This document shows, one piece after another, positions 30,217-40,913 of a DNA stretch of 50,363 nucleotides. The notes under the pieces were generated by a model. It saw nothing but the letters and a program-made list of their open reading frames with translations. It was not told where the DNA came from and did not search any database. Position numbers and translations under genes: made by a program. The DNA is from a virus (Duplodnaviria; Caudoviricetes). The stretch's first letter is position 1; every line of letters begins with the position of its first letter. The stretch covers positions 1-50,363 of the IMG/VR virus record IMGVR_UViG_3300025322_000030. One strand, given 5' to 3'.

Positions 30217-30574
30217 ACTGTTTCATCCAATCTTTTACTTTTGCTAAGTAGACTGACCTGTCCTTTGGATCACAGAAGTGAATAGTAGCTTTTTCAATAC
30301 TCTTCCATCGTTTAAGAAGTAACTTTAGAAAGGCTACTCCACAAGCTACATCAACAAGATCGTCGTCAATAGCTTGCATTGATAATAGCAAGTCTTTCAT
30401 AGCAATAGATGACATCTGAAAGACTCCTAGGCAATTTGTAGGTGACTTTTGTCTTAGGCCAAGTGAACTCTCAACCATTGCAATTGAGTTGGCCCAGGCA
30501 GGATCTATGCCAAAGATTTTAGCAAAGATTTCAATCTTCGCCTTTGTCTCCGATTGTTTTCTGTTCAGCTTCAA
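30182..30574 (-). CDS. SLT-family lytic transglycosylase (endolysin)
   Basis: GIDP...IAMVESS (catalytic Glu) and GVFQM motif. Confidence 0.8.
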   Translation of the reverse strand: MKLNRKQSETKAKIEIFAKIFGIDPAWANSIAMVESSLGLRQKSPTNCLGVFQMSSIAMKDLLLSMQAIDDDLVDVACGVAFLKLLLKRWKSIEKATIHFCDPKDRSVYLAKVKDWMKQFETSTDSNLSD

Positions 30575-31109
30575 CTTCTATCACCATACCAGCCTCTTTG
30601 GCTGCTAGAATACCCCTTCTCTTGAACTCAGTCAGTTCTTCAGCTGTTAGACTTAAGGAAGTAGCCTGTGAATAGATCTTGGTAGGCACACGTAGGCCAG
30701 AGAGCTCAAGTAGGACTGTGTCAGCTACCTTCATCTTGTCCCTCAAGCCTATTTCCCCAGACTCGTCATCAAAAATCTCATGATATGTAGCTAATGCTTT
30801 ATCAGTGAGGACTCTGACTTTCTCAACAACTTTCTTAGTCTCCTCATCACGTTCCTGTCTTATCTCAGATAACTTGTATTCCCCAAGATGACTATTTAAC
30901 GTGTTAGAGACAGTCTGAGGATGGATGTTAAGGATCTCAGCAATCTCTGTCTGCTTAAATCCCTTAGCAGCTAAATTAACAATCTCATGATGGCGCTGCC
31001 AGAGCTGCTTAATGTTGTGAGCCTTCCTCTCAGTAGCTGGAACCCTACGTCTGTCCTCTTCTCTATATTCAAACCCATAAAGTCCGTTTCTCTCACTCAC
31101 TTCCATCAC
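30531..31109 (-). CDS. terS: Terminase small subunit (HTH)
   Basis: GFKQTEIAEILNIHPQTVS HTH plus helical oligomerisation region; first gene of the late arm. Confidence 0.6.
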   Translation of the reverse strand: MMEVSERNGLYGFEYREEDRRRVPATERKAHNIKQLWQRHHEIVNLAAKGFKQTEIAEILNIHPQTVSNTLNSHLGEYKLSEIRQERDEETKKVVEKVRVLTDKALATYHEIFDDESGEIGLRDKMKVADTVLLELSGLRVPTKIYSQATSLSLTAEELTEFKRRGILAAKEAGMVIEVEAEQKTIGDKGED

Positions 31110-31178: not shown

Positions 31179-31203
31179 AGTACGATCAATTTTGGTTCGA
31201 TCT
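31179..31203. promoter_or_regulatory. 25-bp palindrome copy 9 (upstream of the late promoter)
   Basis: AGTACGATCA-ATTTT-GGTTCGATCT. Confidence 0.85.
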
Positions 31204-31401
31204 ATTACTAAACCTTTAGTTGCATCTCCTCAACTACTCTCTCACAAACCACTCAATTGTCCGTACCAAGATCAATCCATTTCAATTCGTTGACCACAAT
31301 CCTACGAGCATTGTACATTTTAGTTTGATTGGAAGAAGTGTGGGAGAGCTAACCCCGCGCCGTACGTCATACGTCTCCCCCATGCCCTCGAAACAAATCC
31401 C

Positions 31402-31430
31402 TTGACAAACAACGTGGGAGGGGTTATGAT
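31402..31430 (+). promoter_or_regulatory. Sigma70 promoter, first rightward promoter
   Basis: TTGACA-17 bp-TATGAT. Confidence 0.85.
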
Positions 31431-31438
31431 GGTGACAA

Positions 31439-31473
31439 TCGCGGGTGAAACCGCGAGACGATCATTGACAATT
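31439..31473 (+). promoter_or_regulatory. boxB-like hairpin followed by a boxA-like antitermination element
   Basis: TCGCGG-GTGAAA-CCGCGA hairpin, then GATCATTGACAATT (11/14 to E. coli rrn boxA region GCTCTTTAACAATT). Confidence 0.55.
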
Positions 31474-31480
31474 AGGGTTC

Positions 31481-31944
31481 GACCATTCAAATCTCGAGCG
31501 GATTTGTGGCATGAAAGGATTTGTCATGACCATAAACCTTAACGAGAAATTGACGGGAATCGTCCGAACAATATCCGCATCCGTTAGGTTGGATACGGAT
31601 ATGCCGAAAACCCAGGCAAAATCAATATTTCTCGATATTGATTTCTCCGAATGCACACTTGGAGATATTTTGGACTTCGCGTGTGCGGACCGGAGAATTG
31701 CATGGGCGAACGGTGGAAATGGCCGGAAGGCATACCCATCGTTGAAAATCGGCCAACATGTAAAGGTGTTGGCCAAATCGGCAGGTGCGAAAACCGTTGA
31801 CATTTTTGCATATGTCAACGAGCAGGCACGTGCGGCCGGTATCACGCCAAAAGAGTGGCTTGATGCCGAGGCCAAAAGGCGCGGTTTGGAACCGCTGGGG
31901 AAATAACAACTTTCCGCCACGAACCGCTCGAGTTTTGGATGGTT
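31481..31944 (+). other. Long-range RNA stem (31481-31510 pairs with 31916-31944) enclosing a CDS
   Basis: 25 Watson-Crick and 3 G-U pairs, 1 U-U mismatch and 1 bulged A; extendable to 31469/31954. Confidence 0.8.
31526..31906 (+). CDS. Early hypothetical protein, 126 aa
   Basis: AAAGGA RBS; GC- and CpG-richer than the bulk genome; downstream of a consensus promoter. Confidence 0.75.
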   Translation: MTINLNEKLTGIVRTISASVRLDTDMPKTQAKSIFLDIDFSECTLGDILDFACADRRIAWANGGNGRKAYPSLKIGQHVKVLAKSAGAKTVDIFAYVNEQARAAGITPKEWLDAEAKRRGLEPLGK

Positions 31945-31962
31945 AAGCCAATTGGAGGTGTT

Positions 31963-32157
31963 ATGAGATCAATTGGGAAGGTAATATGCACAAAGGAGTA
32001 TCCAAAACTCCTACGTGGTAGAGGTAATAGGATAGTCCTACACCTATCAGATATCCGAGACTGGGATAGGGGTATATGGAATATCGGCTTGTATGAGGTA
32101 TTCAAAGGGCCAGATAGGCCAGGAACTACGCCACCCACCGCACCACCCACTGCATAA
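31963..32157 (+). CDS. Small hypothetical protein
   Basis: GGAGGTG RBS before ATG 31963; ends PGTTPPTAPPTA. Confidence 0.5.
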   Translation: MRSIGKVICTKEYPKLLRGRGNRIVLHLSDIRDWDRGIWNIGLYEVFKGPDRPGTTPPTAPPTA

Positions 32158-32167
32158 CAACTGCTGA

Positions 32168-32205
32168 AGGGTAGATAGTTCACAGCTGTCTACCCTCCTT
32201 CCTTT
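32168..32205 (+). terminator. Hairpin, probable terminator
   Basis: AGGGTAGATAGT-TCACA-GCTGTCTACCCT followed by a pyrimidine tract. Confidence 0.55.
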
Positions 32206-32221
32206 AGTTATGTAGTTCCAT

Positions 32222-32246
32222 AGTTCGATTTATTTTGGATTGAACT
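32222..32246. promoter_or_regulatory. 25-bp palindrome copy 10
   Basis: AGTTCGATTT-ATTTT-GGATTGAACT. Confidence 0.85.
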
Positions 32247-32249
32247 TTT

Positions 32250-32520
32250 GCTTCTATTATATAGATAGTGTGAGTTGTTCGTAGTGTTGTGAGTTGTTAG
32301 TGAGTAGTTATATTGTGTGTCTATAATAATTGTACATTGACATATTAACGACACTCATGTTAATATCGTTAATAACGAAAATGTGTGAGTGCCATTATGT
32401 ATTATTATATATATATATCTATATATAGGAGAGTAGTGTGTGGTGTGTGTTGGGTGGTGGGATAAGGCACTAACACATTATGGTTAATGTTGGTTATTTG
32501 GTATGGATCAATCTGTCATT
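32250..32520. other. Non-coding AT-rich region, candidate replication origin
   Basis: (TA)n tract at ~32400-32427 inside an inverted repeat (32380-32393 / 32466-32479); GTGAGTTGTT-like repeats; no ORF. Confidence 0.45.
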
Positions 32521-32523
32521 AAT

Positions 32524-32548
32524 AGATCGAACCATTTTGGATTGAACT
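32524..32548. promoter_or_regulatory. 25-bp palindrome copy 11 (17 bp upstream of a -35)
   Basis: AGATCGAACC-ATTTT-GGATTGAACT. Confidence 0.85.
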
Positions 32549-32565: not shown

Positions 32566-32595
32566 TTGACAACTGGGTGTAAGTTGTGTTATGAT
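32566..32595 (+). promoter_or_regulatory. Sigma70 promoter
   Basis: TTGACA-18 bp-TATGAT with extended -10 TG. Confidence 0.8.
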
Positions 32596-33777: not shown

Positions 33778-33802
33778 AGTTCGATCGAAAATGGTTCGAA
33801 CT
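33778..33802. promoter_or_regulatory. 25-bp palindrome copy 12 (17 bp upstream of a -35)
   Basis: AGTTCGATCG-AAAAT-GGTTCGAACT. Confidence 0.9.
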
Positions 33803-33819
33803 GATAATTCACAAAGTTC

Positions 33820-40017: not shown

Positions 40018-40306
40018 GAGGACATTCTTTATAGCTGGAGTGAAGTTTCACGATCTTGGGAAGGTCATAAAGGATCTTTTTGAGGGAGTAGGACTCACTC
40101 TTGTAGCAGAGCCAAAAAACAAGTTCGATCCAAATGCGATCAGAATCGAGCATGAGGGTACGATGCTAGGCTATGTGCCTAAAAAGTTTAGCGCTGAAAT
40201 AAGTGCTGCGTTGGAAGTTGATTCCATAGAATGTAAGATAACTAAGCTCAGTCCTAGTGCAAAGCCCTGGGAACAGTGTGAGGTATCTGTGAGGAGTCAG
40301 GAATGA
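40010..40306 (+). CDS. HIRAN domain protein
   Basis: FFIAGVKFH...LVAEPKNKFDPNAIRI...LGYVP. Confidence 0.85.
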   Translation: MIERTFFIAGVKFHDLGKVIKDLFEGVGLTLVAEPKNKFDPNAIRIEHEGTMLGYVPKKFSAEISAALEVDSIECKITKLSPSAKPWEQCEVSVRSQE

Positions 40307-40913
40307 AGCAAGCTTATTGTGCAAACTGTGGTATGCAGCTTCAGATAACTAGAAAAGCACTACCAAAGTATGGCAGGATTGTAGATCTGGTGAGGTATCA
40401 TGAATGTCTACATGTTCCACTTGAACTAGATCTAAAACCGGACCCGGTACCAGTCTTCGTCGAAACTCCTAATAAGAATAAGTTTGAACAAAATTTGATC
40501 GAACTTTCAGGGCCAGATGAAACAATAGATCTGCGTGACAGGCGCAGCAAAGAACATGTTATAGATTCAACTGCACCTGCCAGTCTACTTGATCAACTCA
40601 AAGCCAGGAAGGGAACTGGATAATGTCAAAAGTATTTATAGTAAATAAGTCTAACCATAACTTTAGTGAGGCGAAAAAGCATGGAGAGTTAGTATTCCTA
40701 AGTGAGGGAAACCTAAATAAGTTTGCTACTAATACCATGTTCCGGCAGTTTACGGAAGGAATGAGGGACTCGGACCAGCATGACTATGTGGTCCCATGCA
40801 GTCTGAATGTAGCAAACTGCATCGCATGTGCTATATTCGCAAGGAAGCATGGAAAGCTCAATTTACTTCTGTTCAAGGATGGCAAGTACATCGAACGCAA
40901 CCATGTACTGTAA
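40303..40913 (+). CDS. Two hypothetical ORFs (40303-40623, 40623-40913)
   Basis: Translationally coupled ORFs. Confidence 0.65.
40481..40505. promoter_or_regulatory. 25-bp palindrome copy 15 (intragenic)
   Basis: AGTTTGAACA-AAATT-TGATCGAACT. Confidence 0.85.

What the first reader, a model, noticed from the sequence alone, without database searches (positions are those of the whole stretch)
31402..31954. rRNA-operon mimicry: promoter, boxB/boxA-like leader and a processing-type stem around a protein-coding gene
Seen: a consensus promoter, a GC hairpin (31439-31456) and a boxA-like GATCATTGACAATT. The arm GACCATTCAAATCTCGAGCGGATTTGTGGC (31481-31510) then pairs with GCCACGAACCGCTCGAGTTTTGGATGGTT (31916-31944), closing a ~405-nt loop that holds just the RBS, the 126-aa CDS and 9 nt of trailer. 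Three of the four non-Watson-Crick positions are G-U on the transcribed strand (the fourth is U-U), which favours RNA-level pairing over DNA terminal repeats. Known: bacterial rrn leaders use boxB/boxA with Nus factors, and 16S/23S rRNAs are excised from long-range stems by RNase III. Inference: the phage uses host rRNA antitermination and processing to excise, stabilise or possibly circularise the mRNA of a very early protein.
Basis: partly seen in the sequence, partly recalled or inferred. Interest (0 to 1): 0.8.

Follow-up and report, generated by a model that had tools for sequence, protein, structure and literature searches.

The report
Phage gene wrapped in rRNA-style cassette
A soil and sediment phage family places its first early gene inside a close copy of the bacterial 16S rRNA leader and processing-helix layout, so the host probably transcribes and cuts this mRNA as it would a pre-rRNA.

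Summary
A consensus promoter (31402-31430), a 5' hairpin (31439-31456), GATCATTGACAATT (31460-31473) and a ~30-bp long-range helix (31481-31510 with 31916-31944) enclose only the SD, a 126-aa CDS and 9 nt of trailer.

In the window alone the repeat is unremarkable. Comparison decides it. Six further loci carrying the homologous gene keep the same layout with different arm sequences. On 7 loci, 96.4% of cells pair, 16 of 30 pairs changed on both sides, and 0 of 500 shuffles reach this.

All transition-type mismatches are G-U on the coding strand (18 G-U, 0 A-C in six independent lineages). The helix is therefore selected as RNA. It is not an inverton or a transposon end.

The 14-mer is a real rrn boxA. 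It lies 197-233 nt upstream of 16S genes in three Planctomycetota, and 23 of 28 16S leaders in a Pirellulales-level sample carry G[ACU]UC[AU]UUGACAA. In those hosts the leader-trailer helix starts in or right after boxA, as in the phage.

Nus-factor recruitment and RNase III cleavage are inferred, not shown. Circularisation has no support. The host phylum is not settled and the protein's function is unknown. This is a new variant of known kinds, and interest is high.

The parts
31402..31430 (+). Sigma-70-type promoter TTGACA-17-TATGAT at the head of the rightward early arm.
   Evidence: 11 of 12 matches. Equivalent TTGACA-16/17-TAnnAT or GATAAT promoters were found by script in L002, L003, L006 and L193. 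In L004/L005 the promoter was read from the sequence printed. No transcription start was mapped.
31439..31456 (+). Small 5' hairpin (UCGCGG-GUGAAA-CCGCGA) just after the predicted transcript start. It sits where the rrn 'boxB'/leader hairpin sits.
   Evidence: Hairpins with other sequences occupy the same place in L002, L006 and L193 and L004/L005 (I4). L003 has none.
31460..31473 (+). boxA-like motif GAUCAUUGACAAUU.
   Evidence: It is the only exact copy in the window. It is identical to the motif 197-233 nt upstream of 16S in L018, L083 and L097. It fits the 16S-leader consensus of 23 of 28 Pirellulales-level loci. It resembles the published consensus sequences AUGAUCUUUGAAA (B. subtilis) and UGCUCUUUAACA (E. 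coli) in PMC13753749.
31481..31510 (+). 5' (leader) strand of the long-range helix. Its outer half (CCAUUCAAAUCUC) aligns with the CAUUGACAAYUC boxA copy that forms the arm in relatives.
31514..31519 (+). Shine-Dalgarno AAAGGA, inside the conserved block AUGAAAGG(G/A).
31526..31906 (+). CDS of 126 aa. It belongs to a small family with no known domain and a conserved core FACADRRIAWANGGSGRK.
   Evidence: for the family. No Pfam or PHROG match. The model is weak, pLDDT 69.8. No fold match, 0 of 76 at E<=0.001.
31916..31944 (+). 3' (trailer) strand of the long-range helix.
31945..31960 (+). Weak outer extension of the helix (AAGCC, AAUUG pairing back to 31464-31480). It overlaps the SD (GGAGG, 31954-31958) of the next gene.
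   Evidence: This is prediction only; its conservation was not tested.
31963..32157 (+). Second small gene of the unit (64 aa from the internal ATG behind GGAGG). It is not conserved among relatives.
   Evidence: No family match.
32168..32196 (+). 13-bp terminator-like hairpin with a poor U tail, at the end of the two-gene unit. The next strong promoter follows at 32566-32595.

Best explanation
The first rightward early gene of this tailed phage sits inside a copy of the layout of its host's 16S rRNA transcription unit.

Proposed sequence of events:
1. Host RNA polymerase starts at a consensus promoter.
2. The nascent RNA forms a small 5' hairpin and then exposes a boxA identical to a host-type rrn boxA.
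3. boxA recruits NusB-S10 and the other Nus factors. This makes a fast, termination-resistant polymerase that keeps the leader tethered to itself.
4. The tethered leader strand is delivered to its complement about 430 nt later. A ~30-40-bp leader-trailer helix forms, enclosing only SD, ORF and stop.
5. RNase III cuts this helix. That releases a monocistronic mRNA whose 5' and 3' ends stay paired and are protected from exonucleases and 5'-end-dependent decay. It also uncouples the mRNA from the leader and from downstream RNA.

Shown here: the anatomy, its conservation, covariation of the helix, selection on the RNA strand, and the match of motif and layout to real 16S leaders.

Inferred: Nus binding, antitermination, RNase III cleavage and the stabilising effect.
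For: 1. Anatomy at the stated coordinates.

2. Conserved layout. All 5 loci found through the protein (L002-L006) have 26-33-nt inverted repeats 390-400 nt apart around the homologous gene, with different sequences. A sixth (L193) was found by a DNA pattern and has new inner arms.

3. Independent prediction. RNAalifold on a plain MAFFT alignment predicts the same 30-bp helix.

4. Pair counts.
- On 6 loci: 95.8% of cells paired, 15 of 30 pairs changed on both sides, 0 of 500 shuffles reach it.
- On 7 loci: 96.4% paired, 16 of 30 pairs changed on both sides, 0 of 500 shuffles reach it, and slid controls give 26-48% paired.

5. Strand test. Non-Watson-Crick positions are 14 G-U, 0 A-C, 3 U-U and 1 bulge in five lineages (L005 dropped as near-identical to L004). 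L193 adds 4 G-U and 0 A-C. G-U occurs at 8 distinct alignment columns. The + strand duplex is 8-19 kcal/mol more stable than the - strand duplex in all 6 loci. Local base skews (G>C, A>T) predict no such bias.

6. boxA.
- The exact 14-mer lies 197-233 nt upstream, in sense, of 16S in 3 of 120 genome loci returned. All three are Planctomycetota.
- In Stieleria, 3 of 7 exact 12-mers are the leaders of its three 16S genes, and the reversed control gives 0.
- Both Stieleria 23S genes carry GATTTTTGACAATTTGG 342 nt upstream.
- 23 of 28 16S leaders in an order-level sample carry G[ACT]TC[AT]TTGACAA at -125 to -243.

7. Same architecture in hosts. In 20 of 20 evaluated host loci the best leader-trailer duplex begins within boxA (leader positions 1-11). 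16 of 20 beat all 30 shuffled trailers. The Stieleria and L097 leaders and trailers were also read directly.

8. The host candidate encodes RNase III and NusB.

9. Literature.
- Leader-trailer helices are RNase III substrates, and boxA is necessary and sufficient for rrnTAC formation (PMC10250234, abstract and introduction read).
- rrnTAC fixes the leader and can 'deliver' it to its complement (PMC8632103, passages).
Against: - No RNA data exist. No RNA run holds the region, so no transcript end, cleavage or Nus dependence has been seen.
- In 5 of 7 loci boxA itself is base-paired in the helix. This would compete with NusB/S10 once the trailer is made, although several host leaders do the same.
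- The unit is short. It has two small genes, a terminator-like hairpin at 32168 and then a new strong promoter at 32566. The need for antitermination is therefore not obvious.
- boxA close to an SD can repress translation instead, as at suhB (PMC5725501, passages).
- The exact 14-mer is not general in Planctomycetota. 5 of 151 sampled genomes have it, against 1 with the control pattern, and the 4 new sites are not next to rRNA.
- An Acidobacteriaceae 16S leader carries GATCTTTGACAAC, so the host is not fixed.
- Only six independent lineages are known, all metagenomic.
- The structure used for counting was taken from one member (L004). The tool warns that this favours it over slid controls.
Confidence: 0.6

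Rival explanations
1. The helix and boxA are real RNA elements, but they regulate rather than boost expression. A Nus complex at boxA and/or the helix abutting the SD represses translation of the enclosed gene, as at suhB. Alternatively the 5'-3' pairing simply closes the mRNA and stabilises it without any RNase III cut.
For: boxA within about 50 nt of a start represses suhB translation and promotes Rho termination (PMC5725501, passages). Here boxA ends about 40-50 nt before the ATG, and arm 1 ends 15-28 nt before it. In relatives a small conserved hairpin (UCCC-GAUGAAA-GGGG) holds part of the SD. The unit is short, so antitermination seems unneeded.
Against: The layout copies the 16S unit as a whole: hairpin, boxA, and a helix that starts in boxA. 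In that unit the known outcomes are antitermination and RNase III cleavage (PMC10250234). A perfect duplex of 26-33 bp is longer than what RNase III needs. That last point is recalled knowledge and comes from no call.
Confidence: 0.2
2. The conserved TTGACAA motifs act on DNA as -35 promoter elements, or as binding sites for a phage regulator. Their likeness to boxA is coincidental.
For: TTGACA is the -35 consensus. A second copy (GTTGACAATT or GTTCATTGACAAGG) lies just after arm 2, in front of the next gene, in L003, L004/L005 and L193.
Against: The promoter scan finds no promoter at 31464 or after arm 2 in the window. No -10 at the right spacing is visible in the relatives' printed sequences (read by eye). 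The motif pairs with the trailer through G-U pairs, an RNA property. The same motif in bacteria lies downstream of the rrn promoters, in the transcribed 16S and 23S leaders.
Confidence: 0.07
3. The arms are DNA-level inverted repeats. They would be the ends of an invertible segment switched by a recombinase, or terminal repeats of a small mobile element.
For: Inverted repeats of ~30 bp flank a ~400-bp segment. The divergent neighbour gene (30531-31109, minus strand) has a helix-turn-helix with weak hits that include the HTH of DNA invertases.
Against: 18 G-U against 0 A-C mismatches on one strand, and the + strand is more stable in all 6 loci. The element occurs once in the genome. No target-site duplication is visible at the flanks (by eye). 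Four DNA runs, laid as contigs, show no joint or strand change; this is weak evidence, because contigs drop rare forms. No recombinase catalytic domain was found next to it.
Confidence: 0.03

Closest known systems
Bacterial 16S rRNA transcription unit: leader hairpin, boxA, leader-trailer helix cut by RNase III, rrnTAC. The split 16S units of Pirellulales are the closest form.
   Same: - Same order of elements: promoter, hairpin, boxA, 5' strand, cargo, 3' strand.
- boxA sequence identical or nearly so.
- The helix starts in or just after boxA.
- The helix is long enough for RNase III.
- A hairpin follows the trailer.
(PMC10250234)
   Different: The cargo is a 126-codon translated ORF with its own SD, not an rRNA. 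The loop is ~400 nt rather than ~1,500 nt. The element lies in a phage genome. Processing and Nus binding are untested here.
Lambdoid nut sites (boxA + boxB + N protein) and other phage antitermination signals.
   Same: A phage early transcript carries a host-type boxA next to a small hairpin directly behind an early promoter (PMC10250234 introduction; PMC8632103).
   Different: The order is hairpin then boxA, as in rrn and not as in lambda. No N-like protein was identified. No nut site is known to be one strand of a long-range helix around a gene. That last statement rests on my searches and on recall.
RNase III processing of phage T7 early mRNAs.
   Same: Early host-polymerase transcripts are cut into gene-sized mRNAs whose ends stay in duplex stubs. 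This is recalled knowledge and comes from no call.
   Different: T7 sites are local hairpins between genes. Here one long-range helix joins the 5' and 3' flanks of a single gene and is fused to a boxA.
boxA in front of non-rRNA genes (suhB and others).
   Same: A Nus-factor site is placed in the 5' UTR of a protein gene (PMC5725501).
   Different: Those are cellular genes. They have no leader-trailer helix, and the reported outcome is repression.

Membership tests
rrn-type boxA (NusB-NusE site) | Sequence matches the boxA found in rrn leaders of a plausible host. | tested here: met
   The 14 of 14 identity to 16S leaders of L018, L083 and L097. It fits G[ACT]TC[AT]TTGACAA in 23 of 28 sampled 16S leaders. 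It is close to the published B. subtilis and E. coli consensus sequences.
rrn-type boxA (NusB-NusE site) | Lies in the transcribed leader shortly after a promoter. | tested here: met
   It lies 30 nt after the -10 of the predicted promoter. The transcription start was not mapped.
rrn-type boxA (NusB-NusE site) | Binds NusB-S10 and confers read-through of terminators or Rho. | not testable with these tools
   No RNA-protein tool and no expression data were available. NusB is present in the candidate host Stieleria.
rRNA leader-trailer (RNase III processing) helix | Long-range complementarity of about 20 bp or more between the two flanks of the cargo. | tested here: met
   26-33 bp in all 7 loci.
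rRNA leader-trailer (RNase III processing) helix | Pairing maintained by compensatory change, as RNA. | tested here: met
   16 of 30 pairs changed on both sides, and 0 of 500 shuffles reach this. 18 G-U against 0 A-C.
rRNA leader-trailer (RNase III processing) helix | The cargo is an rRNA. | tested here: not met
   The cargo is a conserved protein-coding ORF. No Rfam family matches the region. The element works like this family but is not a member.
rRNA leader-trailer (RNase III processing) helix | Cleaved by RNase III. | not testable with these tools
   No RNA reads were available. RNase III is present in the candidate host Stieleria.
Lambdoid nut site | boxA lies 5' of boxB, and boxB is bound by a phage N protein. 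| tested here: not met
   The hairpin precedes boxA. L003 has no hairpin. No N-like family was found among the neighbouring ORFs scanned.
Invertible DNA segment | Arms conserved as DNA without strand bias, both orientations present, and a recombinase nearby. | tested here: not met
   Strand bias of 18:0. No strand-changing joints in 4 DNA runs (contigs only, so weak). The neighbour has only an HTH.
MITE / small transposon | Multiple copies and target-site duplication. | tested here: not met
   Single copy in the genome. The flanks GGGTTC and AAGCC are not a duplication.

The most novel reading that the evidence does not exclude
Phages of soil and sediment bacteria carry a portable 'pre-rRNA disguise'. 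This is a cassette of host rrn leader hairpin, boxA and leader-trailer helix into which different early genes can be placed. The host's ribosome-biogenesis transcription and processing machinery (rrnTAC, RNase III) then expresses a phage mRNA at rRNA-like rates and releases it as an end-protected monocistron. The same cassette may also compete with host rrn operons for Nus factors at the onset of infection.

L267 hints at modularity. It has the same outer arm sequence (TTGACAACTCAAT / ATTGAGTTGTTAA), the same GTTTAAC before arm 2, a 33-bp helix, and a 104-aa cargo with no significant similarity to the family.
Probability: 0.25. Interest if true: 0.9.

Novelty: new variant of a known kind. Interest (0 to 1): 0.8.

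Why it matters
boxA/Nus antitermination and RNase III leader-trailer processing are textbook features of rRNA operons. Phages are known to borrow each one separately, in lambda nut sites and in T7 RNase III sites.

Here both are fused, in the rRNA arrangement, around a translated gene. The arrangement is kept by selection on the RNA in at least six phage lineages.

If the inferred steps hold, three things follow:
- It would be a natural case of an mRNA routed through the pre-rRNA pathway.
- It would be a compact, testable system for asking whether the rrn antitermination complex really delivers a leader strand to a distant trailer strand.
- It would be a ready-made design for high-output, end-protected expression cassettes.

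It also offers a host clue, through boxA matching, for uncultured phages. Candidate hosts here are Planctomycetota or Acidobacteriota, phyla with very few known phages. That last remark is recalled, not tested.

Tried and rejected
**Protein function**
- No Pfam or PHROG match.
- The AlphaFold model is only moderate: pLDDT 69.8, pTM 0.45, and the conserved core falls below 50.
- Foldseek against PDB gave 0 of 76 hits at E<=0.001.
- The ESM Atlas gave no usable hit.

**RNA families:** only two sub-threshold chance hits, both outside the element.

**Close relatives as DNA:** none in the phage collection.

**Prophage copies of the gene:** none in the genome collection; 63 pattern hits and 0 confirmed.

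**Expression:** no RNA holder is listed for the region.

**DNA runs:** four runs laid as Logan contigs show the window sequence unchanged, with no joints. They may be the source of the record, so they are not independent.

**Host by terminase similarity:** uninformative.
- 6 of 201 Planctomycetota-phylum genomes matched at 26-32% identity.
- 8 of 201 Acidobacteriota-phylum genomes matched at 27-31% identity.

**Exact 14-mer across 151 Planctomycetota genomes**
- 5 genomes have it, against 1 for the control pattern. The 4 new sites are not next to rRNA.
- The exact variant is therefore narrow in distribution.
- Only 5 of the 120 loci were scanned with Rfam. All 120 were screened only with primer-like 16S motifs. 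'3 of 120' is thus a lower bound.

**Cassettes with other loop sizes**
- 74 pattern hits in all.
- L267 was kept as a lead.
- L258 (-19.2 kcal/mol) was rejected because the whole span is one open reading frame in GC-rich coding DNA.
- In the first pattern scan, 29 of 31 hits had no inner complementarity. They serve as a negative control.

**Other long inverted repeats in the window (I1, I2, I12):** rejected as further gene-enclosing stems. They are copies of a palindromic GTTCGATC-type motif.

**Circularisation of the mRNA:** nothing bears on it.

**Supplements not seen:** the boxA tables of PMC5725501 (Supplementary Table 2, Data 1) and Fig. S1 of PMC13753749 could refine the boxA comparison.

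Full report
**Setting.** The window is a complete 50,363-b virus record. It is a tailed phage. The terminase, portal, major head and tail genes are on the minus strand up to about 31.1 kb. Small early genes, then ligase, exonuclease and methyltransferase genes, are on the plus strand from 31.4 kb. GC skew changes sign at about 31.3 kb. The finding lies at the head of the rightward arm.

**Observation.** All elements are present as described.
- Promoter TTGACA-17-TATGAT at 31402-31430, 11 of 12 matches.
- Hairpin at 31439-31456.
- GATCATTGACAATT at 31460-31473, the only exact copy in the window.
- Arms 31481-31510 and 31916-31944, with 25 Watson-Crick pairs, 3 G-U, 1 U-U and 1 bulge.

The loop is 405 nt. 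It holds the SD (31514-31519), a CDS from ATG 31526 to 31906 (126 aa) and 9 nt of trailer. Homologues start at the same methionine, so the upstream in-frame ATG at 31511 is not the start.

The MFE and centroid folds close the long helix, with z = -9.0 against 100 shuffles. By ungapped repeat length, however, this pair is only the 11th of 41 inverted repeats in the window. The single sequence is therefore suggestive, not decisive.

**Relatives.** The protein has no Pfam or PHROG family. It has five homologues at 48-59% identity in the large protein collection. Pattern scans with the alignment gave one viral and four metagenomic loci and none in genomes.

All five loci carry 26-33-nt inverted repeats 390-400 nt apart around the homologous gene, and the repeat sequences differ between loci. 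The spacing is conserved: arm 1 ends 15-28 nt before the ATG, and arm 2 begins 6-11 nt after the stop.

A DNA pattern built from the conserved outer arm motifs found 31 IMG/VR loci. Only two of them have complementary inner arms (-33.0 and -32.8 kcal/mol, against -12.7 or weaker for the other 29). One is the known L002 contig. The other is a new member, L193, on a 50,282-b contig, with a divergent homologue of the protein and new arm sequences.

**Covariation.** RNAalifold on an unguided MAFFT alignment predicts the same 30-bp helix.

| Measure | 6 loci | 7 loci |
|---|---|---|
| Cells paired | 95.8% | 96.4% |
| Pairs changed on both sides | 15 of 30 | 16 of 30 |
| Shuffles reaching this | 0 of 500 | 0 of 500 |
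| Slid controls, cells paired | 26-47% | 26-48% |

L004 and L005 are nearly identical, so there are six independent lineages. In L193 the outer 9-10 pairs were required by the search pattern. The counted structure was taken from L004.

**RNA or DNA?** Non-Watson-Crick positions in the arms are 14 G-U, 0 A-C, 3 U-U and 1 bulge in five lineages (L005 dropped). L193 adds 4 G-U and 0 A-C.

Some G-U pairs are shared by descent, and they occupy 8 distinct columns. Even so, 8 of 8 or 18 of 18 on one strand is not expected for DNA repeats, where G-T and A-C mismatches are equivalent. The local skews (G>C, A>T) would not create the bias either.

The plus-strand duplex is 8-19 kcal/mol more stable than the minus-strand duplex in all six loci. 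The element is single-copy in the genome. The flanks show no duplication. Four DNA runs show no strand-changing joints (contigs only). Inverton and transposon readings are therefore rejected.

**The leader.** Sigma-70-type promoters precede all loci (L004/L005 read). A small hairpin with a variable sequence follows the predicted start in five of six lineages and is missing in L003.

Next comes a conserved motif, GAUC(A/U)UUGACAAYU. In the window it lies just before the helix, and a degenerate second copy forms the outer half of arm 1. In L003-L006 and L193 the motif itself is the outer half of arm 1 and pairs with GAGUUGUYARUG through G-U pairs.

**Is it boxA?** Published consensus sequences are UGCUCUUUAACA (E. 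coli) and AUGAUCUUUGAAA (B. subtilis), the latter directly behind a small 5' hairpin (PMC13753749, passages).

- In three loci the motif lies 197-233 nt upstream, in sense, of a 16S gene. These are Rubripirellula sp., Stieleria magnilauensis and a Planctomycetaceae MAG.
- This is a lower bound. Only 5 loci were scanned with Rfam; the rest were screened with primer motifs only.

In the Stieleria genome:
- There are 7 exact 12-mers, against 0 for the reversed control.
- Three of them are the leaders of its three 16S genes.
- Both 23S genes have GATTTTTGACAATTTGG 342 nt upstream, behind their own promoter and hairpins.

In an order-level sample, 81 genomes gave 48 with 16S and 30 loci were fetched. 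Of the 28 16S genes with at least 250 nt of upstream sequence, 23 carry G[ACT]TC[AT]TTGACAA at -125 to -243.

L002 (GATCTTTGACAAC) and L193 (GTTCTTTGACAATT) match variants seen there.

The motif is not confined to that phylum.
- An Acidobacteriaceae 16S leader has GATCTTTGACAACTAG.
- Bacillus has GTTCTTTGAAAACT.
- Paraburkholderia has GATCTTTAAAAATT.
- The exact 14-mer is rare across 151 sampled Planctomycetota genomes and the 4 new sites there are not rRNA-linked.

The motif is therefore a genuine rrn boxA type. The host is probably a planctomycete of the Pirellulales for this window, but this is not proven. Terminase similarity does not discriminate.

**Same architecture in the hosts.** In Stieleria the leader reads boxA-UUUGGUGGUGAAA-CUGUUGAGUU-UUUGCGAGAUC. 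The trailer carries the three complements in reverse order, followed by a terminator. In L097 the trailer also pairs with the UCAUUGAC of boxA (both read from the sequences printed).

Over 20 evaluated loci, the best duplex between the 60 nt starting at boxA and the 16S trailer begins within boxA in all 20. It beats all 30 shuffled trailers in 16 of 20. Typical pairing is CAAUUUGGUAG with CUACCAAAUUG, and the whole UUGACAA is paired in several loci.

These 16S genes stand alone with their own promoter and terminator. The phage unit therefore parallels them element for element, with an ORF in place of 16S.

**Mechanism.** Established knowledge:
- Leader-trailer helices are cut by RNase III.
- boxA is necessary and sufficient to form the rrn antitermination complex, which elongates faster and resists Rho and intrinsic terminators (PMC10250234, abstract and introduction).
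- The complex fixes the leader at the RNA exit and can deliver it to its distant complement (PMC8632103, passages).

Stieleria encodes RNase III and NusB.

I infer that the phage RNA recruits this machinery, that the helix forms around the translated ORF with the help of tethering, and that RNase III releases a monocistronic mRNA with paired, protected ends.

What weakens this:
- There are no RNA data.
- boxA is paired in most loci.
- The unit is short and is followed by a new promoter.
- boxA near an SD can be repressive (PMC5725501).

I put the RNA helix itself at about 0.95, the boxA identity at about 0.75 and the full mechanism at about 0.6.

**Novelty.** Three full-text searches found no paper describing a phage ORF inside a leader-trailer helix with boxA:
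-, terms bacteriophage, boxA, RNase III, processing stem and mRNA, with four of the five required;
-, terms leader-trailer helix and phage;
-, terms phage, boxA, rRNA, mimic and early gene, with four of the five required.

The library lacks most subscription journals. The element combines two known phage strategies, nut-type boxA and RNase III processing, in the rRNA arrangement. I therefore class it as a new variant of a known kind.

L267 is a further lead. It has the same outer arm sequences, a 33-bp helix and a 104-aa cargo with no significant similarity (hhalign probability 0.9%). It lacks a clear promoter and shows little strand asymmetry. It hints that the cassette is modular.

Noticed in passing
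window 31348-31386: A conserved block, GCTAACCCCGCGC ... TCCCCCATGCC, lies 20-55 nt upstream of the -35. It recurs upstream of the promoter in L004, L005, L006 and L193 but not in L002 or L003. Its function is unknown. It could be a regulator site or part of the leftward promoter region.
   Followed up: partly
window 31181-31207, 32221-32247, 32524-32548, 33779-33806, 40121-40142, 40485-40506 and others: A palindromic GTTCGATC / GATCGAAC-type motif occurs 18 times, against about 4 in shuffles. Copies sit directly before the early promoters P2 (32566) and P3 (33820) and at several gene boundaries on the structural arm. It is probably an operator or other phage-specific regulatory site. A similar AGTTCGAT palindrome lies upstream in L005 (I5).
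   Followed up: partly
L267:9887-10306 (minus strand): A 98.8-kb viral contig carries a 33-bp helix with the same outer arm sequences and the same GTTTAAC before arm 2. It encloses a 104-aa ORF with no significant similarity to the family, although a short motif (DNRK..NGRSGRS) recalls its conserved core.
   Followed up: partly
L003, L004, L005 and L193, just 3' of arm 2: A second boxA-like copy (GUUGACAAUU or GUUCAUUGACAAGG) sits between the trailer strand and the SD of the next gene. This recalls the spacer boxA of linked rrn operons. It is absent in the window, L002 and L006.
   Followed up: no
window 31511-31528 and the same place in relatives: The block AUGAAAGG(G/A) is conserved at the nucleotide level. 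In L003 and L006 it opens a 6-codon mini-ORF ending in AUGA on the main start. In the window and L004 it is in frame with the CDS. In relatives it forms the loop and 3' side of a small hairpin UCCC-GAUGAAA-GGGG that contains the SD.
   Followed up: no
window 32200-32520: A roughly 300-nt AT-rich spacer (GC 0.30-0.35) with TATA repeats and GT-rich runs lies between the first early unit and promoter P2. It holds no ORF of note.
   Followed up: no
L129/L130 (Stieleria genome G001, about 2.696-2.702 Mb): Two of the three 16S genes lie in tandem about 2.9 kb apart, each with its own promoter, boxA and terminator. A long GGTTAGC-type tandem repeat lies between them.
   Followed up: no
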